Shown here piece after piece: positions 42,520 to 59,141 of a stretch of 64,000 nucleotides of DNA. Origin of the DNA: Heterodontus francisci. Its lineage: Eukaryota. The position numbers and the translations under genes are program-made. Position 1 is the stretch's first letter; the number at the start of each line of letters is the position of its first letter. The stretch is from contig NC_090373.1 in NCBI RefSeq assembly GCF_036365525.1, forward strand, positions 21,567,935-21,631,934, given 5' to 3'. The notes under the pieces are model-generated. The model did no database searches and was not told the origin of the DNA. It saw only the letters and a list, made by a program, of their open reading frames with translations.

Positions 42520-42720
42520 ACACAGAGCCAGAGCCAGCGCCGGGTAGGCGCATGCGCGGCTCACCCGAGTTCCGGGACGCAGGCGCACAGCCGGCCGGCT
42601 TGCCGGCGGCCGTCAATCTCTATCCAGTTCCGGTTCCGCCAGTTGTCCCGGGTTACCGGTACCGAGCGGGTGGACCCGCATCCCGATTGTCGACCGAGAG
42701 GATCCCGGAGCGGAGTGAGT
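42520..42720 (+). promoter_or_regulatory. CpG-rich promoter and probable non-coding first exon ending at a 5' splice site
   Basis: Densest non-repeat CpG cluster in the window; NRF1 palindrome GCGCATGCGC at 42548-42557; ETS-type TTCCGG at 42570 and 42628; GGA|GTGAGT donor at 42715. Confidence 0.65.
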
Positions 42721-45700
42721 GCTCCCTGTCTGGGAGGGGGAGGGAGAGGGAGAGGGAGAGGTGTGCCCCCTGTCTGGGAGGGGGAGGGAGGGGGGGGAGG
42801 TGTGCCCCCTGTCTGGGAGGGGGGGGGGAGGTAGGGAGGGAGGGGGGGGAGGTGTGCCCCCTGTCTGGGAGGGGGGGGGAGGTGTGCCCCCTGTCTGGGA
42901 GGGGGGGGGGGGGGGGAGAGAGAGGTGTGCCCCCTGTCTGGGAGGGAGGGGGGAGGTAGGGAGGGAGGGGGGGGGAGGTGTGCCCCCTGTCTGGGGAGGA
43001 GGGGGGGGGGGGGGAGAGAGAGGTGTGCCCCCTGTCTGGGAGGGAGGGGGAGGTAGGGAGGGAGGGGGGGGAGGTGTGCCCCCTGTCTGGGAGGGAGGGG
43101 GGGAGGTAGGGAGGGAGGGGGGGGGAGGTGTGCCCCCTGTCTGGGAGGGGGGGGGAGGTAGGGAGGGAGGGGGGGGAGGTGTGCCCCCTGTCTGGGAGGG
43201 GGGGGGAGGTGTGCCCCCTGTCTGGGAGGGAGGGGGGGGGGGGAGAGAGAGGTGTGCCCCCTGTCTGGGAGGAGGGGGGACGGTAGGGAGGGAGGGGGGG
43301 GAGGTGTGCCCCCTGTCTGGGAGGGGGGGGAGGTAGGGAGGGAGGGGGGGGAGGTGTGCCCCTGTCTGGGAGGGGGGGGGAGGTAGGGAGGGAGGGGGGG
43401 AGGTGTGCCCCCTGTCTGGGAGGGGGGGGGAGGTAGGGAGGGAGGGGGGGGGGAGGTGTGCCCCCTGTCTGGGAGGGGGGGGGGAGGTGTGCCCCCTGTC
43501 TGGGAGGGAGGGGGGAGGTGTGCCCCCTGTCTGGGAGGGAGGGGGGGGGGGGAGAGAGAGGTGTGCCCCCTGTCTGGGAGGGAGAGGGAGAGGGGAGAGG
43601 AGAGAGAAGAGAGAGAGAGAGAGAGGTGTGCCCCCTGTCTGGGAGGGAGGGGGGAGGTAGGGAGGGAGGGGGGGGGAGGTGTGCCCCCTGTCTGGGAGGG
43701 GGAGGGGGAGGGGGAGGGAGAGGGAGGAGAGAGAAGAGAGAGAGAGAGAGGTGTGCCCCCTGTCTGGGAGGGAGGGGGGAGGTGTGCCCCCTGTCTGGGA
43801 GGGGGGGGGGGAGAGAGAGGTGTGCCCCTGTCTGGGAGGGGGAGGGGGGAGGGAGAGGGAGGAGAGAGAAGAGAGAGAAGAGAGAGAGAGAGGTGTGCCC
43901 CCTGTCTGGAGGGAGGGGGGAGGGTAGGGAGGGAGGGGGGGGGAGGTGTGCCCCCTGTCTGGGAGGGGGGGGGAGGTAGGGAGGGAGGGGGGGGAGGTGT
44001 GCCCCCTGTCTGGAGGGGGGGGGAGGTAGGGAGGGAGGGGGGGGAGGTGTGCCCCCTGTCTGGGAGGGGGGGGGAGGTGTGCCCCCTGTCTGGGAGGGAG
44101 GGGGGGGGGGGGAGAGAGAGGTGTGCCCCCTGTCTGGGAGGGGGAGGGAGAGGGAGAGGGGAGAGGAAGAGAAGAGAGAGAGAGAGAGAGGTGTGCCCCC
44201 TGTCTGGGAGGGGAGGGGGAGGTAGGGAGGGAGGGGGGGGGAGGTGTGCCCCCTGTCTGGGAGGGGGGGGGAGGTGTGCCCCCTGTCTGGGAGGGGGGGG
44301 GAGGTGTGCCCCCTGTCTGGGAGGGAGGGAGGGAGGGGGGGGGGGGAAGAGGAGGTGTGCCCCCTGTCTGGGAGGGAGGGAGGGGGGAGGAGGTGTGCCC
44401 CCTGTCTGGGAGGGAGGGAGGGGGGAGGAGGTGTGCCCCCTGTCTGGGAGGGAGGGAGGGAGAGGGGGGAGGTAGGGAGGGAGGGGGGGGAGGTGTGCCC
44501 CCTGTCTGGGAGGGAGGGAGGGGGGAGGAGGTGTGCCCCCTGTCTGGGAGGGGGGGGGAGGTGTGCCCCCTGTCTGGGAGGGAGGGGGTGGGGGGGAAGA
44601 GAGAGGTGTGCCCCCTGTCTGGGAGGGGGAGGGGGAGGGAGAGGGAGGAGAGAGAAGAGAGAGAGAGAGAGGTGTGCCCCCTGTCTGGGAGGGAGGGGGG
44701 AGGTAGGGAGGGAGGGGGGGGGAGGTGTGCCCCCTGTCTGGGAGGGGGGGGGAGGTGTGCCCCCTGTCTGGGAGGGTGGGGGGGGGGGGGGGAGAGAGAG
44801 GTGTGCCCCCTGTCTGGGAGGGGGAGGGGGAGGGAGAGGGGGAGAGGAGAGAGGAGAGAGGAGAGAGGAGAGAGAAGAGAGAGAGAGGTGTGCCCCCTGT
44901 CTGGGAGGGAGGGGGGAGGTAGGGAGGGAGGGGGGGGGAGGTGTGCCCCCTGTCTGGAGGGGGGGGAGGTAGGGAGGGAGGGGGGGGAGGTGTGCCCCCT
45001 GTCTGGGAGGGGGGGGGAGGTGTGCCCCCTGTCTGGGAGGGAGGGGGGGGGGGGAGAGAGAGGTGTGCCCCCTGTCTGGGAGGGGGAGGGGGAGGGGGAG
45101 GGGGAGGGAGAGGGAGAGGAGAGAGAAGAGAGAGAGAGAGAGAGGTGTGCCCCCTGTCTGGGAGGGAGGGGGGAGGTAGGGAGGGAGGGGGGGGGAGGTG
45201 TGCCCCCTGTCTGGGAGGGGGGGGAGGTGTGCCCCCTGTCTGGGAGGGAGGGAGGGGGGAGGAGGTGTGCCCCCTGTCTGGGAGGGAGGGGGGGGGGGGG
45301 GAGAGAGAGGTGTGCCCCCTGTCTGGGAGGGAGAGGGAGAGGGGAGAGGAGAGAGAAGAGAGAGAGAGAGAGAGGTGTGCCCCCTGTCTGGGAGGGAGGG
45401 GGGAGGTAGGGAGGGAGGGGGGGGAGGTGTGCCCCCTGTCTGGGAGGGGGAGGGGGAGGGGGAGGAGAGGGAGGAGAGAGAAGAGAGAGAGAGAGAGGTG
45501 TGCCCCCTGTCTGGGAGGGAGGGGGGAGGGTGGCCCCCTGTCTGGGAGGGGGGGGGGAGAGAGAGGTGTGCCCCCTGTCTGGGAGGGGGAGGGGGAGGGA
45601 GAGGGAGGAGAGAGAAGAGAGAGAAGAGAGGAGAGAGAGGTGTGCCCCCTGTCTGGGAGGGAGGGGGGAGGTAGGGAGGGAGGGGGGGGAGGTGTGCCCC

Positions 45701-47611
45701 CTGTCTGGGAGGGGGGGGGAGGTAGGGAGGGAGGGGGGGGAGGTGTGCCCCCTGTCTGGGAGGGGGGGGAGGTAGGGAGGGAGGGGGGGGAGGTGTGCCC
45801 CCTGTCTGGGAGGGGGGGGGAGGTGTGCCCCCTGTCTGGGAGGGAGGGGGGGGGGGGGAGAGAGAGGTGTGCCCCCTGTCTGGGAGGGGGAGGGAGAGGG
45901 AGAGGGGAGAGGAGAGAGAAGAGAGAGAGAGAGAGAGGTGTGCCCCCTGTCTGGGAGGGAGGGGGGAGGTAGGGAGGGAGGGGGGGGGAGGTGTGCCCCC
46001 TGTCTGGGAGGGGGGGGGAGGTGTGCCCCCTGGTCTGGGAGGGGGGGGGAGGTGTGCCCCCTGTCTGGGAGGGAGGGAGGGAGGGGGGGGGGGGAAGAGG
46101 AGGTGTGCCCCTGTCTGGGAGGGAGGGAGGGGGGAGGAGGTGTGCCCCTGTCTGGGAGGGAGGGAGGGGGAGGAGGTGTGCCCCCTGTCTGGGAGGGAGG
46201 GAGGGAGAGGGGGGAGGTAGGGAGGGAGGGGGGGGAGGTGTGCCCCTGTCTGGGAGGGAGGGAGGGGGGAGGAGGTGTGCCCCCTGTCTGGGAGGGGGGG
46301 GGAGGTGTGCCCCCTGTCTGGGAGGAGGGGGGGGGGGGAAGAGAGAGGTGTGCCCCCTGTCTGGGAGGGGGAGGGGGAGGGAGAGGGAGGAGAGAGAAGA
46401 GAGAGAGAGAGAGAGAGGTGTGCCCCCTGTCTGGGAGGGAGGGGGGAGGTAGGGAGGGAGGGGGGGGGAGGTGTGCCCCCTGTCTGGGAGGGGGGGGGAG
46501 GTGTGCCCCCTGTCTGGGAGGGAGGGCGGGGGGGGGAGAGAGAGGTGTGCCCCCTGTCTGGGAGGGGGAGGGGGAGGGAGAGGGGAGAGGAGAGGGGAGA
46601 GGAGAGAGGAGAGAGGAGAGAGGAGAGAGAGAGAGGTGTGCCCCCTGTCTGGGGAGGGAGGGGGGAGGTAGGGAGGGAGGGGGGGGAGGTGTGCCCCCTG
46701 TCTGGGAGGGGGGGGGGAGGTAGGGAGGGAGGGGGGGGAGGTGTGCCCCCTGTCTGGGAGGGGGGGGGAGGTGTGCCCCCTGTCTGGGAGGGAGGGGGGG
46801 GGGGGAGAGAGAGGTGTGCCCCTGTCTGGGAGGGGGAGGGGAGGAGAGGGAGAGGAGAGAGAAGAGAGAGAGAGAGAGAGGTGTGCCCCCTGTCTGGGAG
46901 GGAGGGGGAGGTAGGGAGGGAGGGGGGGGGAGGTGTGCCCCCTGTCTGGGAGGGGGGGGGAGGTGTGCCCCCTGTCTGGGAGGGAGGGAGGGGGGAGGAG
47001 GTGTGCCCCCTGTCTGGGAGGGGGGGGGAGGTGTGCCCCCTGTCTGGGAGGAGGGAGGGAGGGGGGGGGGGAAGAGGAGGTGTGCCCCCTGTCTGGGAGG
47101 GAGGGAGGGGGGAGGAGGTGTGGCCCCCTGTCTGGGAGGGAGGGAGGGGGGAGGAGGTGTGCCCCCTGTCTGGAGGAGGGGGGAGGTAGGGAGGGAGAGG
47201 GGGGAGGTAGGGAGGGAGGGGGGGGAGGTGTGCCCCCTGTCTGGGAGGGAGGGGGGAGGGAGGTGTGCCCCCTGTCTGGGAGGGGGGGGGAGGTGTGCCC
47301 CCTGTCTGGGAGGGAGGGAGGGGGGGGGGAGGTGTGCCCCCTGTCTGGGAGGGAGGGGGGGGGGGGAAGAGAGAGGTGTGCCCCCTGTCTGGGAGGGGGA
47401 GGGGGAGGGAGAGGGAGGAGAGAGAAGAGAGAGAGAGAGAGAGGTGTGCCCCCTGTCTGGGAGGGAGGGGGGAGGTAGGGAGGGAGGGGGGGGAGGTGTG
47501 CCCCCTGTCTGGGAGGGGGGGGGGAGGTGTGCCCCCTGTCTGGGAGGGAGGGGGGGGGGGGGAGAGAGAGGTGTGCCCCCTGTGGGAGGGGGAGGGGGAG
47601 GAGGGGGAGAG

Positions 47612-47645
<34 letters not shown>

Positions 47646-49990
47646 GTGTGCCCCCTGTCTGGGAGTGAGGGGGGAGGTAGGGAGGGAGGGGGGGGGAGGT
47701 GTGCCCCCTGTCTGGGAGGGGGGGGGAGGTGTGCCCCCTGTCTGGGAGGGAGGGAGGGGGGAGGAGGTGTGCCCCCTGTCTGGGAGGGGGGGGGAGGTGT
47801 GCCCCCTGTCTGGGAGGGAGGGAGGGAGGGGGGGGGGAAGAGGAGGTGTGCCCCCTGTCTGGGAGGGAGGGAGGGGGGAGGAGGTGTGCCCCCTGTCTGG
47901 GAGGGAGGGAGGGGGGAGGAGGTGTGCCCCCTGTCTGGGAGGGAGGGAGGGGGGGGGAGGTGTGCCCCCTGTCTGGGAGGGAGGGGGGAGGTAGGGAGGG
48001 AGAGGGGGGAGGTAGGGAGGGAGGGGGGGAGGTGTGCCCCCTGTCTGGGAGGGAGGGAGGGGGGAGGAGGTGTGCCCCCTGTCTGGGAGGGGGGGGAGGT
48101 GTGCCCCCTGTCTGGGGAGGGAGGGAGGGGGGGGGGGGAAGAGGAGGTGTGCCCCCTGTCTGGGAGGGATGGAGGGGGGAGGAGGTGTGCCCCCTGTCTG
48201 GGAGGGAGGGAGGGGGGAGGAGGTGTGCCCCTGTCTGGAGGGAGGGAGGGGGGGGAGGTGTGCCCCTGTCTGGGAGGGAGAGGGGGGAGGTAGGGAGGGA
48301 GGGGGGGGAGGTGTGCCCCCTGTCTGGGAGGGAGGGAGGGGGAGGAGGTGTGCCCCCTGTCTGGGAGGGGGGGGGAGGTGTGCCCCCTGTCTGGGAGGGG
48401 GGGGGAAGAGGAGTGTGCCCCCTGTCTGGAGGGAGGGAGGGGGGAGGAGGTGTGTGCCCCTGTCTGGGAGGGATGGGAGGGGGGGAGGAGGTGTGCCCCC
48501 TGTCTGGGAGGGAGGGAGGGGGGGGGAGGTGTGCCCCCTGTCTGGGAGGGAGGGGGGAGGTAGGGAGGGAGGGGGGGGAGGTGTGCCCCCTGTCTGGGAG
48601 GGAGGGGGGGGAGGTGTGCCCCTGTCTGGGTGGGAGGGAGGGAGGGGGGGGGGGATGTGTGCCCCCTGTCTGGGAGGGAGGGAGGGGGGGGGTGAGGTTG
48701 TGCCCCCTGTCTGGGAGGGAGGGGGGAGGTAGGGAGGGAGGGGGGGGAGGTGTGCCCCCTGTCTGGGAGGGAGGGGGGGGGGGATGTGTGCCCCCTGTCT
48801 GGTGAGGGGGGGGGGGGAGGTGTGCCCCCTGTCTGGGAGGGAGGGAGGGGGGGGAGGTGTGCCCCCTGTCTGGGTGGGAGGGAGGGAGGGGGGGGATGTG
48901 TGCCCCCTGTCTGGGAGGAGGGAGGGGGGGGGGAGGTGTGCCCCTGTCTGGGAGGGAGGGAGGGGGGGGGAGAGGAGGTGTGCCCCCTGTCTGGGAGGGA
49001 GGGGGGAGGTAGGGAGGGAGGGGGGGGAGGTGTGCCCCCTGTCTGGGAGGAGGGGGGGGGAGGGTGTGCCCCCTGTCTGGGAGGGAGGGAGGGGGGGGGG
49101 GGAGAGAGGAGGTGTGCCCCCTGTCTGGGAGGGAGGGGGAGGGGGGGAGAGAGGAGGTGTGCCCCCTGTCTGGGAGGGAGGGGGGAGGTAGGGAGGGAGG
49201 GAGAGAGGAGGTGTGCCCCCTGTCTGGGAGGGGGAGGGAGGAGGGAGAGGTGTGCCCCATGTCTGGGAGGGAGGGGGGGGGGGGAGAGGAGGTGTGCCCC
49301 CTGTCTGGGAGGGAGGGGGGGAGGAGGGGGGGGAGAGGAGGTGTGCCCCCTGTCTGGGAGGGAGGGGGGGAGGAGGGGGGGGGGAGGTGTGCCCCCTGTC
49401 TGGGAGGGGGGGGGGGAGGTTGTGCCCCCTGTCGGGAAGGAGGGAGGGGGGGGAAGGTGTGCCCCCTGTCTGGGATGGGAGGGAGGAGGAGGGGGGGGGG
49501 GGAGATGTGCCCCCTGTCTGGGAGGGGAGGAGGGGGGGGGGGAGTGTGCCCCCTGTCTGGGAGGGAGGGAGGGGAGGTGAGTGCCCCCTGTCTGGGAGGT
49601 GAGTGCCCCCTGTCTGGAGGGAGGGAGGGGAGATGAGTGCCCCCTGTCTGGGAGGGAGGGAGGGGAGATGAGTGCCCCCTGTCTGGGAGGGAGGGAGGGG
49701 AGATGAGTGCCCCCTGTCTGGGAGGGAGGGGAGGTGAGTGCCCCTGTCTGTGAGGGAGGGAGCGAGCGAGTTCCCCCTGTCTGTGAGGGAGGGAGAGGGC
49801 GAGTGATCCCTGTCTGTGAGGGAGGGAGGGGGCGAGTGATCCTTGTCTGTGTGAGGGAGGGAGGGGGCGAGTGATCCCTGTCTGTGAGGGAGGGAGGGGG
49901 TGGGCGAGTGCCCCCTGTCTGTGAGGGAGGGAGCGAGTGATCCCTGTCTGTGAGGGAGGGTGAGAGTGAGTGCCCTCTGTCTGTGAAGGA
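42721..49990 (+). repeat. Minisatellite-like array: core GAGGTGTGCCCCCTGTCTGG with variable purine spacers
   Basis: Roughly 150-200 copies (estimated by eye); core drifts to GAGTGCCCCC/GAGTGATCCCTGTCTGTGA after about 49570. Confidence 0.97.
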
Positions 49991-50029
49991 GGAAGAGGCA
50001 TGGGGAATCTTTATTTGAATGCAGGACAC

Positions 50030-51772
50030 AACCACAATAAGGTCTGTGAACATGTGGCAGACGTGAAAATAAATGGTTTAAATCTAATAGCCTTAGAGAC
50101 TTAGTTACAAGGTGACTAAGGTTGGGAAATAAATATTACAGGGTACACTATTTCAAAAAGACAGACTGAATGGCAAAGGAGGAGGGGCTAGCCCTGATAG
50201 TAAAGGATGACATAGGGCGTTAATGAGAAGGGACCTTGGCTCAGAAGATTATGCATTAGAATCAGTAAGGGTGGAGATGAGGCAATAGCAAGAATCAGAA
50301 AATGCTGGTGGGAGTAGCTGATAGGCTCCGCTAACAGTAATTATGCTGTTGGACAGAGCATTAGATAAGAAATTATTGGAGCTTGTAACAAAGGCAATGT
50401 AATAATTGTGGAGGACTTTAATATTCATATGTACTAAACCAAACAAATTGGCAAGGATAGTGTAGAAGATGAGTTTGTAGCATGTTTTTTTGACAGTTCC
50501 CTGGACAATACAATGTGGAACCAAGTAGGGATAAAACTATCTTAGATCTCGTATTGTGTAATGAAGCAGGGTTAATTAGTAATCTTATAGTAAAAGATCA
50601 GCTGGGTAATAGTGAACATAATACAACTGAATTCCATGTTAAGTTTGAAAGTGACATACCTCAATCACAAACAAGAAGCTTATACTTTAAGCCAGTTACA
50701 AAGATATGAAGAGAGAGCTGGCTGAGGTTAATTGGCTAAGTACACTAAAAGGTCGGGCAGTTAAATAAACAGTGGGAATATTTAAAGAAGCAGTTCAAAA
50801 TGTTCAACAAAAATACATTCCATTGAAAAATGAAAACTCAGCAAGAAAGATCTATCCGTGGCTTACTCAAGAAGTTAAGGATAGTATTACATTAAAAGGA
50901 GAGGCTTATAATGTTGCAAAGTCTGAGGATTGGGAGTGTTTTAGAAACCAGCAAAGGGCCACCAAAAAATTGCTAAAAATGGACAAAATAGAATACAAGA
51001 GTCAACTAGCTAGGAATATTAAAACAGACTGTAAGAGCTTTTACAAGCATGTATAAAGGAAGAGAGTAGCTAAAGCAAACATGGGTCCCTAAGAAGCAGA
51101 GACAGGAGACATTATATGGCATGAGGAATGGCAGAGACATTGAATAAATATTTTGTCTGTCTTCACAATAGAAGGCACAAGTTGTATACCAGAAATGGAG
51201 GGTAACCTTGGGGCTAAAAAGCATGAAGAAATTGAGGTAATTAGAATCAGTAGAGCAAAAGTATTGGAAAAATTTAAGGGACTAAAATCTGACAAATCCG
51301 CAGGACCTGATGGCCTACGTTTTTGGGTTCTAAAAGAGATGGCTGCAGAGGTAGTAGATGCACTGCTTATGATTTTCCAAAATTCCTGGATTCTGGAATG
51401 GTACCAGTGGATTGGAAGTAAGCAAGTGTAATAGCGCTATTCAAGAAAGAAGACAGAGAGAAAAGAGGGAACAACAGGCCAGTTAGCCTCACATCAGTCA
51501 TTGGGAAAATGCTGGAATCTATTATCAAGGAAGTCTTAACAATGTACTAAGAAAATCATAGTATGATCAGGCAAAGTCAACACGGTTTTACAAAAGAAAA
51601 ATCGTCTTTGACAAATTTATTCGAGTTTTTTGAGGATGTAACTGGTAGGGTAGATAAAGGGGAACCAGTAGATATCTTATACTTGGATTTCAAAACGGAA
51701 GTTGATAAGGTGCCACACAAAAGGTTAATAGACAAGATAAGGACTCATGGAGTTGGGGTAATATATTAGCAT
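50030..51772 (+). mobile_element. Decayed CR1 ORF2 fragment (endonuclease and RT N-terminus)
   Basis: ILDLVLCNE, GNSEHN, KSAGPDG, SQHGFTK and YLDFK. Confidence 0.9.
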
Positions 51773-54700
51773 GAATAGCATTGGTGACTGTGCCTTCAGC
51801 TGCCAGTGCCCTAAGCTCTAAAATTCCTTCCCTAAACCTCCCCACTTCTCTGTCCTTTCTCCTTTTAAGATGTTCCTTAAAACTTTCCTGTTTGACCAAG
51901 CTTTTGGTCGCTGCTCTAATACCTCCATGTGTGGATTGATGTCAAATTTTGTTTGATCACACTCCTGTGAAGCACCTTGGGGTGCTTTATTACCTTAAAG
52001 TCACTATTTAAATACAATTAGTTGTATGGTCCCCAAAGCTCTCCCACCACTGGGGTTTTCCTTGTCTCCTGTCTGGTTCTGTTTGGATTAATTGATAATG
52101 ATTGATTGCTATGATTAGTCAACAACTCTATTATCATTGTATCATGTGACTCCCAGGATGGTCGAAGTGAACTGGATGGATCTCGCTCTTTTCCTACAGC
52201 AATTCCAATGTTCCATGTAATGTACAGTGCATCATTCTGCTGAAACCTGACTGGTTCTTTGAAGATAAGAAGTAATTATTGGGTGCAGCTTTGAGTCAAT
52301 TACGGGTTACCTGCTGTTTGTGTGGGAAGTTTGCAGATTGGCAGGTACTTGGAAACTTACCAGCCCCTGGGCAGCTCGAAATGACTGCTTTTCTCCTCTT
52401 CAAAATACTTCTAACACTTTGAAGTGTGGCAGAAGTGTGTTAGATGCACTACTTTTATTTAGATTTATGTAGCTCTAAGAAAGAAAAGAAGCATTGCTGT
52501 TTCAAACTGGTGCATTTTGTACAATAGTTAAAAATGCAAAATGTATAAAGGCACTATATCCCAGTAACTATGCAAGCTGGAAGCTGACAAGAGTATTCGA
52601 GCAGTCTAGCCTTGAGAAGAGGAGTGGGATCTATGTAGATTTCTGTAGAATGTACAGCAAGAAATTGGCCATTCGGGCACAGGTCCATGCTGCACACAAG
52701 TCTCCTCCCACCCTTCCATCTAACTGTATTGGCATTACAAATCTGAAGATATCAGTAGTGGTGAGGGAGAAGTAGGGATAGAGGTGAAAGAAAACATGGT
52801 AGGGAAAGAGCAGGTGAAGATGGAGTTGAGCAAGACACTGGGGCCATCCCAAATCTCTTGGCATTTCTTCGCAGATGAAGATTTTGGGAATGTTGTTGTC
52901 ATTGGTTGCAGGCCTGCTGGTGGCTAGTCAGGCCTATCCATGACCGGCAGATGCTCCCACAGCAGGTACAAGTGAAGGTGTAGTGGCTGCTGGGGGCAAT
53001 TGAATCTATCCTTCTCCTTTTCTCTTTCATGCTGGTTCTTCGCTCAGTCTCAAAGGTGTCTGTAGCCCTCCTGATGCAGCATCTCCAGGCATCACAATCT
53101 ATGGCCTGCACTTCCCACTAGCAATGGTCGATGTGGCACATAAAGGGACTTCTTCAGGGAGTCCTTGAAATGTTTTCATGGGGCCCCTCTGTTCCTTTTA
53201 CCAGTGGTCAGCTCTCCATACAACATGATCTTGGACAGGCGACTGTCATCCATCCGTGCAATGTGACCCATCCAATGCAGTTGGTTTTGCAGGAGGATGG
53301 CCTCGATGCTGGTGATGTTGGCTGTTTCCAGGACTTCAATGTTTGTGATAAGGTCCTACCAGTAGATCTTGAAGATGCTGCGGAAGCAGTGCTGATGGAA
53401 GCTCTCTAGAAGGCGTACATGACGGCGGTATAGGACCCATGATTCGACGCCATACAGAAGGGTGATGAGGACTATGGCTTTGTACACTGAGTTTGGTCTG
53501 TGCTCTGAGGCTGCGGTTGCTCCACACACGTTTGTAGAGTCTGCCGAATGTACTGTTTGCTTTTGAGAGCCTATTGTCCATGTCCTTGTCCATGGTGGTA
53601 TCAAATGAGATGACGCTCCCCAAATAAGTAATTGCTTGATGGCATTCAGCTTGGTTCCCTCAATGACCATGCTTGGTGGTCTATATTCTTCTTGGGGTGC
53701 AAGCTGATGCAGGACTTAAGTTTTCTTTAAACTGATTTTTAGTCCGAAGAGTTGTGCCATCTCAGAAAAATGTGGTGTTATACGTTGCAGGTCTGACTGA
53801 CTGTGGGCCAGGAGAGCACAGTCATCGGTGAAAAGAAGTTCACGGATGAGTTTTTCTTGTGTTTTTGTGTGAGCCTGAGGTTGACGCCCCAGTCCGGAAG
53901 CGTATGTAAACTCCCTCCTTAAGATCTTCCATTGCCTGGTGCAACATCATGCTGAAAAAGAGGGTGAATCGGGTCGGGGCCAGCACACATTCCTGCTTCA
54001 CGCCATTGGAGATTCGGAAGGGACTTGAGAGGTCGCTGTTTTCCTTGGCTTGTCTGTACTGATTTTCATGAAACTGCTTCACCATGGCCAGGAACCTGGG
54101 TGGGCATCCAAATTTTTCAAGGATTTTCCAAAGTCCATCTCTGCTCACAGTGTCAAAGGCCTTGATGAGGTCTAAGAAAGTGACGTACAAGCTTTTGTTT
54201 TGCTCAAGACACTTTTCTTGTAATTGCCTGAGTGCAAATACCATTTCTGTGTGGCTCTGTTTGCTCTGAAACCACACTGTCTCTCTGGGAGGTTTTCTTC
54301 CTCAATGGTAGGCACTAGCCTGTTCAGAAGTATTCTAGCCAGGATCTTCCCAGCAATTGAGAGGAGGGTGATCGCACGATAGTTGGGGCAGTCTGATTTT
54401 TCTCCTTTGTTTCTGTACAGGGTGATGATAACGGCATCATAAAGATCCTATGAAATCCTGCCCTGTTCTCAGCAGGCTGTGAAAATTTCGTGGAGCTTGA
54501 TGTATAGGGCAGGGCCACCATGCTTCAAGGCTTCGGGTGGAATTCCATCTGCTCTGGGGTCTCTGTTGTTCTTCATCTGGTTGATTGCGGTCACAGTTTC
54601 CTCCAGAGTTCGGCTGTCATCCAGCTCTTCTTTGACTGGCAATTGTTGGATGCGATTGATGGCAGTATCAAGCACTGTGCACTTGGCACTGAAGAGAGTT

Positions 54701-55131
54701 TCAAAGTGCTCCGACCAGCGATCCAGGACTGACTCCTTGTCGGCGTATCGGGTCTTGCCATCGGCGATCAAGGGGTTTTGTGCTGGTCCGTAGCCAGATT
54801 TTAGTGCTTCATAGAAACTTCTTATGTCGCCAGTATCAGCATACAGTTGAATTTTTTCCGCAAGTGCAATCCACCAGTCGTTTTGGATGTTCCTCAGTTT
54901 ACATTGAAGGGTGCTGCATGCTTGACATCTTTTTCTCTTGGCTGAGCAAGGTGAGCCTGATCTGACCTTTTTATTTTTAGCAGAACTTGAATTTCCTTGT
55001 CATTTTCATCAAACCAGTTCCTCCTTCTTGGTAATATAAAAGCAAAATACTGCGGATGCTGGAAATCTGAAATAAAAACAAGAAATGCTGGAATCACTCG
55101 GGTCTGGCAGCATCTGTGGAAAGAGAAGCAG

Positions 55132-55168
55132 AGTTAACGTTTCGGGTCAGTGACCCTTCTTCGGAACT
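55132..55168 (-). ncRNA. Minimal type I hammerhead ribozyme motif, variant core
   Basis: agtt-CCGAAGA-a-gggtc/act/gaccc-GAAA-C-GTT-aact; palindromic ACGT stem III. Confidence 0.7.
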
Positions 55169-55536
55169 GACAAATATTAGAAAAGTCACAGATTATAAAC
55201 AAGTGAGGTGGGGGTGGGGCAAGAGATAACAAAGGAGAAGGTGCAGATTGGACCAGGCCACATAGCTGACCAAAAGGTCACGGAGAAAAGGCAAACAATA
55301 TGTTAATGGTGTGTTGAAAGACAAAGCATTAGTACAGATTAGGTGTTAATACACTGAATATTGAACAGCAGCAAGTGCAAACCTGAAGAAAAACAACCTG
55401 AAAAAAACAGTGGGTAAGCAAACTGAACAAACTAAGATGAAATGAAATAAATGCAAAAAAAGATTGTAAAAAATGTAAAAAGGAATGTAAAAAAAGGAAG
55501 AAAAAATAACTAAAAATGAAAGTAAAATGGGGGCTG

Positions 55537-56283
55537 TCATGCTCTGAAATTATTGAACTCAATGTTCAGTCCGGCAGGCTGTAGTGTGCCTAATCGGTAG
55601 ATGAGATGCTGTTCCTCGAGCTTGCGTTGATGTTCACTGGAACACTGCAGCAATCCCAGGACAGAGGTGTGAGCATGAGAGCAGGGGGGAGTGTTGAAAT
55701 GGCAAGCAACCGGAAGCTCAGGGTCCTGCTTGCGGACTGAGCGGAGATGTTCCGCAAAGCAGTCACCCAGTCTGCGCTTGGTCTCCCCAATGTAGAGGAG
55801 ACCACACTGTGAGCAGCGAATACAGTATACTACATTGAAAGAAGTACAAGTAAATCGCTGCTTCACCTGAAAGGAGTGTTTGGGGCCTGGGATAGTGAGG
55901 AGAGAGGAGGTAAATGGGCAGGTATTACACCTCCTGCAATTGCAGGGGAAGGTGCCCTGGGACGGGGACGAGGTGGTGGGGGTAATGGAGGAGTGGACCA
56001 GGGTGTCGCGGAGGGAACGATCCCTTCGGAATGCTGACAGGGGAAGGGAGGGGAAGATGCGACTGGTAGTGGCATCACGCTGGAGGTGGCGAAAATGGGG
56101 GAGGATGATCCTTTGGATATGGAGGCTGGTGGGATGAAAAGTGAGGACAAGGGGAACCCTGTCACGGTTCTGGGAGGGAGGGGAAGTGATGAGGGTAGAG
56201 GTGCGGGGAATGGGTCGGACACGGTTGAGGGCCCTGTCAACCACAGTGGGGGGAAATCCTCGGTTGAGGAAAAAGGAGGTCAT
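55537..56283 (-). CDS. PLE ORF C-terminal part: RT thumb, Cys-rich linker and GIY-YIG endonuclease (5'-truncated)
   Basis: FLNRGFP, PLVLTFHP, FPCNCRRCNTC, NVVYCIRCSQCGLLYIGETKRRL, EQHLIYRLGTLQPAGLN. Confidence 0.85.
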   Translation of the reverse strand: MTSFFLNRGFPPTVVDRALNRVRPIPRTSTLITSPPSQNRDRVPLVLTFHPTSLHIQRIILPHFRHLQRDATTSRIFPSLPLSAFRRDRSLRDTLVHSSITPTTSSPSQGTFPCNCRRCNTCPFTSSLLTIPGPKHSFQVKQRFTCTSFNVVYCIRCSQCGLLYIGETKRRLGDCFAEHLRSVRKQDPELPVACHFNTPPCSHAHTSVLGLLQCSSEHQRKLEEQHLIYRLGTLQPAGLNIEFNNFRA

Positions 56284-58170
56284 ATCAGAAGCACCGTCAT
56301 GGAAGGTAGCATCATCAGAGCAGATGCGTCGGAGACGGAGAAACTGGGAGAATGGAATGGAGTCCTTACAGGAGGTAGGGTGTGAAGAAGTGTAGTCGAG
56401 GTAGCTGTGGGAGTCAGTGGGCTTCTTCTTGGTGCTGGGTCCGAATACCTTGTTGGAAGTATCCGGTACTGCAGCTTTGATGTGTTCCCAGAGTTCTTCT
56501 GGAGTGGAATGAGCAGTGAGATCAGGATGTTCCAGTCCAATCTGTAAGGATGTTTGATATTTATCTCTGCAAGATGAGGTTTGCAGGTTGCTGTCTCAAT
56601 TTCTTTGATGGGTCATCTCTCAGTCTGTTCTTGGGCTTAGGCTTGAAGTGGAAGTTCAGCTTTGAATGAACGAGCCGGGGGTCTGTATGACAGTCGGCAC
56701 TGGGCATGACTCTAGTATGTAGGACGTCCTTTAGGTCACACTGGCACACCAAGATGTAATCTGTCAGGTGCCAGTGTTTAGAACGGGGATGCATCCATGT
56801 GGTCTTGAAGCAATCTTTTTGTTGAAAGAAGGTGTTGGTTATGGACAGCTACTTTTCTGCACAGAATTCCAAGAGTAAGCATTCGCTTTCATTACCGTTT
56901 CCAACTCCATGGTTTCCACGCACACCCTTCCATGCCAGGCTGTCACGGCCCACTCTGTTATTGAAATCACCAAGGACGATAATTTTGTCCTTGGGAAGGG
57001 CATTCTGGATGAGTTTACGGAGATCTGTGTAGAACTTATCTTTGTCAGCTGGGTTAGCCTTCAGGTTTGGAGCATAAACACTGATGAGGGTTGCATGCTG
57101 TTGGTCTTGGAGGGGGAGGCACAGGGACATGATGCATTCGGTGTGGCCGATTGGCAGGCTTGAAAGTTTCTTGGCGATGGTCTTCACCATAAAGCCAACA
57201 CCGAAGAGTAAACCTTGAGGTCTACCTGACCAATAGAGGGCGTAGCCAGCATTCTGTTCTGTTAGGCTGCCTTGCTCTGAGAAGTGGACCTCACTCAGGG
57301 CTGCTATATCAATGTCTAGTCTGGCTAGCTCATGTCACCAGGGCTGAGCATTGTCGGGGTGGCTGTTGTCACCAGAGTCAAGCATTGTTCTTATGTTCCA
57401 GAAAGCGAGTTTCAGAGTTGTTTTTCTTTTCCTACCTTTTGAAGTGAGGTTAGGAGTTTGCGTTTCCTTCTCTGTCGTAGTTTGACCGCGTTAAGAGATG
57501 CCCATTGACCACAGCAAGCCAACTGGGTGGTAGGGAGATGAGCATTTGTTTAGGCCACTTTTTCTAGGCCCCTCTCCAATTTCGGAACCAACAGTTCTGT
57601 CCTTCAAAAAGGCTGCTTGGTCGCTCAGGGTGCTACCGGGTGATGATGTCGTCTCTAGGTCATCAAAACGAACAATATCCTGAGCCGCCTCCACGCAGGA
57701 TTGGAACTGCGGCTGCCAGTGCCATCTTGCACCTGCCGTTTTCACCCCTTTCCTGTCGTTACAGGACTTGTTGAGTTATAGTTGGGGTGGATGGATTTCC
57801 TTCCTGCCTGCTCAGTGGTGCTTTAAGGTGGAGTACAGTTTGTGCTGACTGACCCCACCCTTTAAGCCTGGAGCTCATCTGTCATGGCCCAGTGAACTGG
57901 GACAGTGGCAGCAAGGTCTCCAAGCCGTAGATTTGGATTCAGCGTTTCCCTCTCCTAGGTAGGTTGCTGACTGAGGCTTGAAGGGACCCTCCTTCCCTTG
58001 CTATTTTATCATAGCTGTTATACCAACAACCATAGTCCACGCAATATGGTGTGGTACGCCTTTGGTCCAGAACATGATGGTCACTTGAGCCGCTTGGAAT
58101 CCTTCCGCTCTGGCTGTTACCTTTATCAAGAAAGACATCCGCCCAGGTGGTGTCATGTTCATAATTTCTC

Positions 58171-58337
58171 CCCTCACTACATTTCGCCTGTCAGCTGAGA
58201 CGGTGTACCGGGGTGTGGCGCTTGGAGCCAGCAGTGAGAGCTGGGTGTAGATGTGATTCCAGTCCATCCTGCAAATTGGATGCAGCTGAGTGAAAAATAC
58301 AAGGATACTAACCCTATCTGAACACTCCATATACCCC
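58171..58337 (-). ncRNA. HDV-like self-cleaving ribozyme at the RTE 5' end
   Basis: P1 GGGGTAT/ACACCCC, P2 CTCTCACTGC/GTAGTGAGGG, P3 GGC/GCC, L3 TCCAAGC, P1.1 CC/GG, P4 CCGTC/GACAG and J4/2 GCGAA, all in canonical order. Confidence 0.8.
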
Positions 58338-58794
58338 AAATCATCCAATTAAGATTTCAGCTGAGAATTGGATAGACTCCAGAGCAGTGGAATGGTGGTG
58401 TTACTGGAAGCCGAAACAGATGGTTTAAATTTTTACTGATATTAACTTGAAGAAATAATGAGTCATTCAAGCTTAATCTTGGAGAGGGTGGCAGAATGGT
58501 AGGAGGAATCACTTCTGTTTCCTCTTTCTTTCCTTCTGATTAGTAATAGTTGACCAGTTGCTGCAGCGAGATGTACATGGGAAATTCTGCTAGTTACAAT
58601 CTGAAGATCTTCTAATGTTGTGTGCTCTATTACCTAGTTATGTAATGTTGTGGGAGTCCTATTGTGCATACAGGGTAGGAGCAATTCCTTTTGAAGGGGA
58701 TAAGGAGGTTAGCAGATTAGATTTCCATCGTAACCCCCACCGTAGCGCATTTAAAACATATAGCAGAATAACACCTTGCACTTGCATAGTACCT

Positions 58795-59141
58795 TTTTTT
58801 TTAGATTAGAGATACAGCACTGAAACAGGCCCTTCGGCCCACCGAGTCTGTGCTGAACATCAACCACCCATTTATACTAATCCTACACTAATCCCATATT
58901 CCTACCAAACATCCCCACCTGTCCCTATAATGCCCTACCACCTACCTATACTAGTGACAATTTATAATGGCCAATTTACCTATCAACCTGCAAGTCTTTC
59001 GGCTTGTGGAAGGAAACCGGAGCACCCGGAGAAAACCCACGCAGACACAGGGAGAACTTGCAAACTCCACACAGGCAGTACCCGGAATTGAACCCGGGTC
59101 CCTGGAGCTGTGAGGCTGCGGTGCTAACCACTGCGCCGCCC
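58795..59141 (-). mobile_element. HE1-type V-SINE
   Basis: Reverse complement of the 9806-10133 family with a (tctaa)n/A tail. Confidence 0.9.

What the first reader, a model, noticed from the sequence alone, without database searches (positions are those of the whole stretch)
58171..58337. HDV-like ribozyme with a 90-nt J1/2 domain at the 5' end of a shark RTE LINE
Seen: reading the minus strand from 58337 gives every element of the nested double pseudoknot in order. P1 5' GGGGTAT (58337-58331); a 90-nt J1/2 that folds by itself (TGGaGTGTtcAGAT/ATCTACACCCA closing two hairpins, AGGGT/ATCCT and CATCC/GGATG); P2 5' CTCTCACTGC; P3 GGC; L3 TCCAAGC; P3' GCC; P1' ACACCCC; P1.1 GG; P4 CCGTC-loop-GACAG; J4/2 GCGAA with the catalytic-C equivalent at 58186; P2' GTAGTGAGGG. 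P1 and P4 each carry one A-C mismatch and P2 has a one-base bulge, consistent with decay after insertion. Established: HDV-like ribozymes process the 5' ends of R2, RTE and other non-LTR elements, often with J1/2 insertions. Inference: this family uses self-cleavage to define its 5' end. I do not know of a description in a cartilaginous fish but cannot search for one.
Basis: partly seen in the sequence, partly recalled or inferred. Interest (0 to 1): 0.85.

Follow-up and report, generated by a model that had tools for sequence, protein, structure and literature searches.

The report
Self-cutting RNA heads a fish LINE
A family of several hundred decayed jumping-gene copies in this large vertebrate genome begins exactly at a hepatitis-delta-type ribozyme pattern, so the ancestral element likely cut its own RNA to set its start, a known trick in a host group where I found no report of it.

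Summary
Observation confirmed. The minus strand at 58337-58171 holds every element of an HDV-type nested double pseudoknot. It is the only such hit in the window, and no shuffle gave one as good.

It heads a 4.1-kb single-ORF APE-RT LINE of RTE type. Of 125 family copies picked by downstream anchors, 56 start at the predicted cleavage G and 104 within 14 nt; flanks upstream are unrelated, and target-site duplications abut the start. The family majority repairs this copy's P1 and P4 mismatches. The P2 bulge is ancestral, not decay, and one J1/2 hairpin is peculiar to this copy.

Against: no covariation within the family, no Rfam hit, no cleavage test. A distant RTE-like element carries an HDV-type head with different pairs; the closest relatives gave no hit.

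Verdict: new member of a known kind. Extra lead: 5' truncations cluster in the ribozyme's P2 3' strand (8 observed, 1.3 expected), possibly reverse-transcriptase stalls at the folded RNA. The scan noted HDV-like heads before on fungal LINEs and in another cartilaginous fish, not on this family.

The parts
58171..58337 (-). HDV-like ribozyme pattern; predicted cleavage 5' of G58337 (family position 1)
   Evidence: family boundary
58331..58337 (-). P1 5' strand; pairs with 58216-58210; one A-C mismatch here, G-C in the family majority
58241..58330 (-). J1/2 insertion, 90 nt here, 97 nt in the family; predicted long irregular hairpin; its first helix strand repeats the P1 5' strand
58230..58240 (-). 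P2 5' strand (11 nt)
58217..58229 (-). P3 (GGC/GCC) and 7-nt L3 with first U, the CC of P1.1, and the conserved G
58208..58216 (-). P1 3' strand and the GG of P1.1
58188..58207 (-). 4-nt linker and P4 hairpin (5 bp, 6-nt loop); A58189 is a CpG-decay mismatch
58183..58187 (-). J4/2 GCGAA; C58186 is the predicted catalytic cytosine (kept in 107 of 142 copies, T in 33)
58171..58182 (-). P2 3' strand with ancestral one-base bulge at 58181; site of the second cluster of 5' ends in the family
58001..58162 (-). remnant of a short upstream ORF that in the family starts 5 nt after P2 (about 75 codons); no Pfam match
57491..58170 (-). rest of the 5' UTR; its 3' part is 68-71% identical to UTRs of related elements from metagenome contigs
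52900..57490 (-). degenerate single ORF (APE endonuclease, RT, weak C-terminal zinc-finger match); frame opens after a stop at 57493-57491 and the first in-frame ATG (57385) lies inside the endonuclease
55033..56422 (-). later 1.39-kb insertion, Penelope-like by a weak GIY-YIG match (E 0.094); absent from the other copies compared
52856..52900 (-). 3' end of the element; short GA/AAG-type tails in other copies
58333..58342 (-). 5' copy of the target-site duplication, overlapping the first Gs of P1 (9 of 10 identical to the 3' copy)
52846..52855 (-). 3' copy of the target-site duplication

Best explanation
These 167 bases match the whole layout of an HDV-type ribozyme and begin where the copies of an RTE-type LINE family begin, so in the ancestral active element the RNA likely cut itself just before G58337, which would free the element from longer host transcripts. 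Shown: the pattern, the 5' boundary, the target-site duplications, the single APE-RT ORF, neutral decay of the copies. Inferred by analogy with R2, L1Tc and other RTE elements: Mg2+-dependent cleavage using C58186, an uncapped 5'-OH RNA protected by the fold, and cap-independent translation (the ORF has no in-frame AUG ahead of the endonuclease's first motif). Inferred from the fossil copies: reverse transcription usually ran through the ribozyme to within a few bases of the end but sometimes stopped in its P2 3' strand. This genomic copy is a decayed relic and may not cleave.
For: Boundary: of 125 copies picked by anchors downstream of the ribozyme, 56 start at position 1, 78 within 4 nt and 104 within 14 nt; columns upstream show no family sequence. 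Target-site duplications of 10-14 bp end within 5 nt of the start in 8 of 15 full-length copies with a 3' end. The family majority forms all five helices and keeps the L3 U and G and the J4/2 C. The only two non-CpG variable sites in the 175 nt are compatible with the fold: U.G to C-G below P4 (29 of 130) and A.A to U-A extending the J1/2 hairpin (36 of 140). The base before position 1 is T 30, A 15, G 5, C 2 of 52, so no extra-G cap signature (the signature is recalled from L1). A distant RTE-like element (L316, 42% amino-acid identity to the query) begins, right after a microsatellite, with an HDV-type head whose P2, P3, P4 and J1/2 use different pairs: 1 sense hit, 0 antisense hits in 38 kb from 23 loci. 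HDV-like ribozymes cleaving at RTE 5' junctions are established (PMC3774820, PMC5786205, passages).
Against: No cleavage assay and no raw RNA reads. No two-sided covariation: 0 of 56 pairs in 12 copies, score at shuffle level; in 146 copies the apparent double changes in P4 are independent CpG decay. No Rfam HDV-family match at E<=10, nor for two other copies or L316. Nested folding z is -0.16 and the minimum-energy fold lacks P1. Competing pairings are as strong as P1: a second P1 register (positions 10-16, -11.8 kcal/mol, equal) and an 8-bp helix between J1/2 and L4/P4 (-12.3). The closest relatives (68-71% UTR identity) gave no HDV hit at their 5' ends. Only 2 of 146 copies keep every core pair and key base.
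Confidence: 0.85

Rival explanations
1. An internal promoter sets the 5' end at G1; the HDV-type fold serves only as a protective or translation-promoting 5' structure, or cleaves as a secondary function (dual promoter-ribozyme role recalled for L1Tc).
For: A sharp 5' boundary without upstream sequence is also what an internal promoter gives. PMC11331408 (passages) reports that the fold can help insertion through its structure, not necessarily its activity. The 3' half of the UTR is conserved across distant relatives that lack this head.
Against: The boundary falls on the exact base predicted for cleavage; the catalytic-position C and the L3 U/G are kept in the family majority; no extra G at -1.
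Confidence: 0.1
2. The match is chance: a G-rich 5' end and ordinary hairpins fitted to a flexible template.
For: No Rfam hit, z -0.16, no covariation, descriptor written after seeing the motif.
Against: 0 equally good hits in 150 shuffles of 50 kb; predicted cleavage site equals the independently mapped family start; mismatches of this copy revert to pairs in the family; an unrelated-sequence HDV-type head sits at the same place in L316.
Confidence: 0.03
3. For the second cluster of 5' ends only: it comes from a purine-rich tract that favours microhomology joining, or from a second RNA 5' end, not from reverse transcriptase stalling at the folded ribozyme.
For: The cluster lies in a GA-rich tract, and three further independent 5' ends (353, 360, 370) lie at another GA-rich hairpin downstream. 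Nested structure as stable as the ribozyme core occurs elsewhere in the UTR. Only 2 of 5 cluster copies with a 3' end show a plausible target-site duplication. The window was chosen after seeing the data (scan statistic 0.006).
Against: Ends are spread over the whole P2 3' strand (163-175), the first helix met from the 3' side; inverted 5' pieces also end or join there (L151, L206, L085, L298).
Confidence: 0.45

Closest known systems
[quoted passage not shown] 2011; paper not held, seen only as cited in PMC3774820 and PMC5786205)
   Same: Same clade type, same position, predicted cleavage at the 5' junction, same five-helix layout.
   Different: Host appears to be a cartilaginous fish; I found no such report in five searches, but could not read the 2011 paper or its supplements. 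97-nt J1/2 whose first strand repeats P1; ancestral P2 bulge.
R2 retrotransposon HDV-like ribozymes (PMC3774820: passages and section 12; PMC11331408: passages)
   Same: Nested double pseudoknot, long structured J1/2, L3 U-G pair, catalytic C in J4/2; P1 mismatches are linked to loss of activity, as suspected for this copy.
   Different: R2 is rDNA-specific with a restriction-like endonuclease and often borrows 28S sequence for P1; this element is dispersed, APE-type, makes target-site duplications and encodes all of P1 itself.
L1Tc ribozyme of Trypanosoma cruzi (PMC6765202, passages)
   Same: HDV-like head on a dispersed APE-type LINE that releases it from longer transcripts.
   Different: Within the first 77 nt, so far shorter; different LINE clade and host.
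Twister-variant ribozymes of the RTE element Perere-3 (PMC8501958, passages)
   Same: Self-cleaving head on a single-ORF RTE, with duplications next to the cleavage site; cleavage linked to translation.
   Different: Different ribozyme class; shows that RTE heads are interchangeable modules.

Membership tests
HDV-like ribozyme | Five helices P1, P1.1, P2, P3, P4 in nested double-pseudoknot order | tested here: met
   Family majority pairs at all positions; this copy has one mismatch each in P1 and P4
HDV-like ribozyme | Catalytic cytosine in J4/2 | tested here: met
   C58186; C in 107, T (CpG decay) in 33 of 142 copies; feature from PMC11331408 passage
HDV-like ribozyme | L3 with the U and G of the reverse wobble | tested here: met
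   T in 100 and G in 89 of 102 copies; feature from PMC3774820 section 12
HDV-like ribozyme | Cleavage 5' of the first P1 guanosine, matching the element's 5' end | tested here: met
   Genomic proxy only: 56 of 125 copies start at that G, 104 within 14 nt
HDV-like ribozyme | Covariation supporting the helices | tested here: inconclusive
   None within the family; two one-sided compatible changes; one distant element with different pairs
HDV-like ribozyme | Match to an Rfam HDV-type model | tested here: not met
   No hit at E<=10, E<=1; L316 is missed too, so the models look insensitive to these heads
HDV-like ribozyme | Mg2+-dependent self-cleavage lost in the C-to-U mutant | not testable with these tools
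   bench assay
RTE-clade LINE | Single ORF with APE endonuclease and RT, no ORF1 | tested here: met
   One frame free of shared stops over about 3.1 kb in 12 copies; Pfam PF03372, PF00078; homologues are single proteins of about 1,050 aa
RTE-clade LINE | Short 3' UTR with microsatellite-like tail and target-site duplications | tested here: met
   GA/AAG-type tails, 10-14 bp duplications in 8 of 15 copies; tails per PMC6007223 abstract
RTE-clade LINE | RT phylogeny groups with named RTE elements | not tested
   No labelled reference set; endonuclease homologues are named 'craniofacial development protein 2-like', which I recall as the usual label of RTE endonucleases

The most novel reading that the evidence does not exclude
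The fossil copies record both ends of the ribozyme: most start at the cleavage G, and a second group stops in the P2 3' strand because reverse transcriptase stalled at the folded pseudoknot. That would be genomic evidence that the ribozyme stays folded in the retrotransposition complex. In addition, close RTE relatives share the UTR core but carry different 5' heads, so self-processing heads would be swapped modules.
Probability: 0.35. Interest if true: 0.6.

Novelty: new member of a known kind. Interest (0 to 1): 0.38.

Why it matters
It extends ribozyme-defined 5' ends of RTE LINEs to what appears to be a cartilaginous fish, in a family where about 125 mapped junctions pin the cleavage site without a bench test. 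Rfam misses it, so such heads are probably under-annotated in vertebrate repeats. RTE elements are being developed as gene-writing tools and 5' ribozyme folds affect insertion by R2 (PMC13708176, PMC11331408, passages), so a stall at the ribozyme's foot would bear on template design. The kind of system is known, which caps the interest.

Tried and rejected
Rfam scans: no HDV-type hit. Covariation within the family: none; double changes in P4 are CpG decay. Selection on genomic copies: non-CpG divergence is 4.6% in the core, 4.8% in J1/2 and 5.1% in the UTR, so none seen. A second cleavage site at the repeated P1 strand (position 10): rejected, only 2 of 125 start at 10 and 4 at 9, within a smooth tail. 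A second family with the same core in this genome: none found; 46 hits all had family-type P1', and the one odd hit of 30 (L216) has no P2 and is chance. A variant suggested by the read-laying table: 0 matches in the genome. A second RTE family in this genome (L221, L233-L262) has an unrelated 5' UTR and gave no usable covariation. My guess of a third J1/2 hairpin at 29-43 failed (T-T in the majority). The upstream ORF: no Pfam match. Sequencing runs: no RNA holder listed; only contigs could be laid, which cannot show a start or strand. In one DNA run of another organism, short deep contigs matched only the core (58192-58240; depth 214-286 against about 4 beside it): a weak hint, not used as support. 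Viral contigs: no relative. A sequence-only model found nothing in 23 loci. No host exon was recognised by Pfam among 87 of 123 window ORFs scanned. Ruminski 2011, Webb 2009 and Webb and Luptak 2011 are not held.

Full report
Observation. The minus strand from 58337 to 58171 holds, in order, P1, a 90-nt J1/2, P2, P3, a 7-nt L3, P3', P1', GG, a 4-nt linker, P4, J4/2 with C58186 and P2'. A descriptor I wrote from recalled HDV features found this as the only core in the 64-kb window. In 150 shuffles of 50,408 nt it found 3 weak cores and none with P2 of 10 bp or more. That test is partly circular, since I wrote the descriptor after seeing the motif. Rfam gave no HDV-type hit at E<=10. Nested folding gives z -0.16 and recovers P2 and a P3 hairpin but not P1; pseudoknots are not modelled there.

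The element. The motif heads a 4.1-kb repeat running from 58337 to 52856, split in this copy by a 1.39-kb insertion at 56422-55033 with a weak GIY-YIG match. Other copies are 84-89% identical to it and most of 18 long loci reach the same 3' end. Twelve copies share one frame free of common stops over about 3.1 kb, apart from one stop early in the endonuclease that looks like CpG decay, and are 93-95% identical to the column majority. Pfam finds an APE-type endonuclease and an RT. The nearest proteins are 60-74% identical and come from marine invertebrates, lancelets, fish, a ray and birds, many named 'craniofacial development protein 2-like'. I recall that as the usual label for RTE endonucleases; no tree was built. 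One downstream anchor has 149 matches at one mismatch and BLAST-type first looks gave 281-322 candidates, so roughly 300 copies keep the 5' region. The host was not identified; a 6.0-Gb vertebrate assembly fits a shark.

The 5' boundary. I took all 49 matches of one anchor and the first 100 of 149 of another, both downstream of the ribozyme: 127 places, 125 after removing two twins. Eleven entries were set by hand (internal deletions and insertions counted as full length, inverted pieces at their ribozyme-side end). Of the 125, 56 start at the predicted cleavage G, 78 within 4 nt and 104 within 14 nt. Upstream columns hold no family sequence. Of 19 long loci including the window, 15 had a 3' end, and 8 of these show a 10-14 bp duplication ending within 5 nt of the start. 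The base before position 1 is T 30, A 15, G 5, C 2 of 52. There is no extra G; in several copies the T belongs to the duplication, so it probably reflects target choice.

The family fold. In 102 aligned copies the majority gives a perfect 7-bp P1, an 11-bp P2 with a one-base bulge, a 3-bp P3, a 2-bp P1.1, a 5-bp P4 and J4/2 GCGAA. This copy's P1 and P4 mismatches are decay. The P2 bulge is ancestral. Divergence is the same in core, J1/2 and UTR (4.6-5.1% non-CpG, about 26% CpG in core and UTR), so the copies decay neutrally, and only 2 of 146 keep every core pair and key base. There is no covariation: 0 of 56 pairs with a two-sided change in 12 copies; the double changes in P4 among 146 copies are CpG decay on both sides. 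The only two non-CpG variable sites in the ribozyme are linked to other subfamily sites and compatible with the fold. Two competing pairings are as strong as P1: positions 10-16 repeat the P1 5' strand, and 47-54 complement 148-155. No peak of starts at position 10 is seen.

Relatives. A scan of metagenome contigs gave 30 loci. With the looser descriptor on 23 of them (38 kb per strand) there was one sense hit and no antisense hit: L316, a distant single-ORF relative, starts right after a microsatellite with an HDV-type head whose P2, P3, P4 and J1/2 use other pairs. The closest relatives share 68-71% identity with our UTR from about position 370-410 onward, yet gave no hit at their 5' ends. 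This weakens any claim that the head is a fixed trait of the lineage and suggests exchangeable heads, as known for twister variants on Perere-3 (PMC8501958, passages). Several of these loci may simply be truncated.

Translation. The ORF frame opens after a stop at 57493-57491 and its first in-frame ATG lies after the endonuclease's first conserved motif. Of 120 homologues, 72 lack that motif in their first 200 residues, and most of the 55 starts I inspected begin at the same internal Met. Non-canonical initiation therefore looks clade-wide. A short upstream ORF starts 5 nt after P2. A role of the ribozyme in initiation is inferred from R2 (PMC6765202, passages), not shown.

Second cluster of 5' ends. 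Of 21 starts beyond position 14, 8 lie at 163-175, the P2 3' strand, and 3 at 181; 10 are spread over 15-162. The rate from 27 of 30 loci anchored further downstream predicts 1.3 (P 6e-5; one probable duplicate pair was left in that background). The scan statistic for a window chosen afterwards is 0.006. Three more cases outside the counted set agree (L077, L085, L298). Against a stall reading: the tract is purine-rich, a similar small cluster lies at 353-370, equally stable nested structure occurs elsewhere in the UTR, and only 2 of 5 such copies with a 3' end show a plausible duplication. I treat it as a lead.

Mechanism. Most likely the source element was transcribed as part of longer host RNAs, the ribozyme cut 5' of G1 using the J4/2 cytosine, and the folded, uncapped head protected the RNA and perhaps aided translation before target-primed reverse transcription. 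The boundary and the fold's pairing potential are shown; cleavage, protection and translation are inferred. P1 mismatches are linked to lost activity in R2 ribozymes (PMC3774820, section 12), so this copy may be dead.

Known work. Cleavage at RTE 5' junctions is cited to Ruminski et al. 2011 in PMC3774820 and PMC5786205 (passages read); the paper itself and its supplements were not available and could list a fish element. Searches pairing ribozyme terms with RTE, shark, cartilaginous fish or elephant shark (listings only, plus the passages named) showed no report of an RTE ribozyme in a cartilaginous fish. Searches for truncation at ribozymes (listings, and passages of PMC11331408) showed no report of such a cluster. 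PMC7761336, PMC13708176: passages; PMC6007223: abstract. Earlier notes of this scan describe HDV-like heads in fungi and in another cartilaginous fish; none matches this sequence or genome.

Verdict. Real feature, correctly read in the main; new member of a known kind; interest 0.38.

Noticed in passing
window 58338-56542 and L031:5868-7671 (G000:C3, 1.7 Mb away, opposite strand): A twin copy with different flanks shares this copy's private changes: 5 mismatches over the first 1.2 kb, more beyond, while its 3' end is only 85% alike. Looks like ectopic gene conversion between inverted copies.
   Followed up: partly
L085, L099, L104, L151, L155, L192, L206, L298: Copies with inverted 5' pieces, as in twin priming (term recalled from L1), in an RTE-type family.
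   Followed up: partly
L132, L142, L162, L173, L179, L189: Internal deletions within J1/2 that leave the core; L173 and L179 lose nearly the same stretch (about 33-88), the inner hairpin.
   Followed up: no
L221:3400-3150 (minus) and L233-L262: A second, more abundant RTE family (2,416 candidates) has a conserved structured-looking 5' UTR block, a C-rich variable tract and at least two alternative upstream heads; no Rfam hit in 4 loci. Candidate for another ribozyme type.
   Followed up: partly
L304:2690-2800, L319:2690-2800, L307:20-110, L314:120-280, L315 and L318 first 300 nt: Different structured-looking 5' heads on related RTE-like elements from metagenome contigs, none matching my HDV descriptor or Rfam.
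   Followed up: partly
L316:54-153: Clean compact HDV-like ribozyme pattern with a very short P4 at the start of an RTE-like element, missed by Rfam.
   Followed up: partly
window 57490-57925: The 3' half of the 5' UTR is conserved at about 70% across distant relatives although it precedes the ORF; possible internal promoter or initiation element.
   Followed up: no
window 58795-59137: A 340-nt high-copy SINE-like repeat (about 93% identity to copies in many loci) lies 460 nt upstream of the element.
   Followed up: no
window 55033-56422: Penelope-like 3' fragment with a 352-codon open frame inserted in the LINE; ends share a short repeat.
   Followed up: partly
window 42560-50135: 7.5-kb low-complexity tandem repeat giving long spurious open frames.
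   Followed up: no
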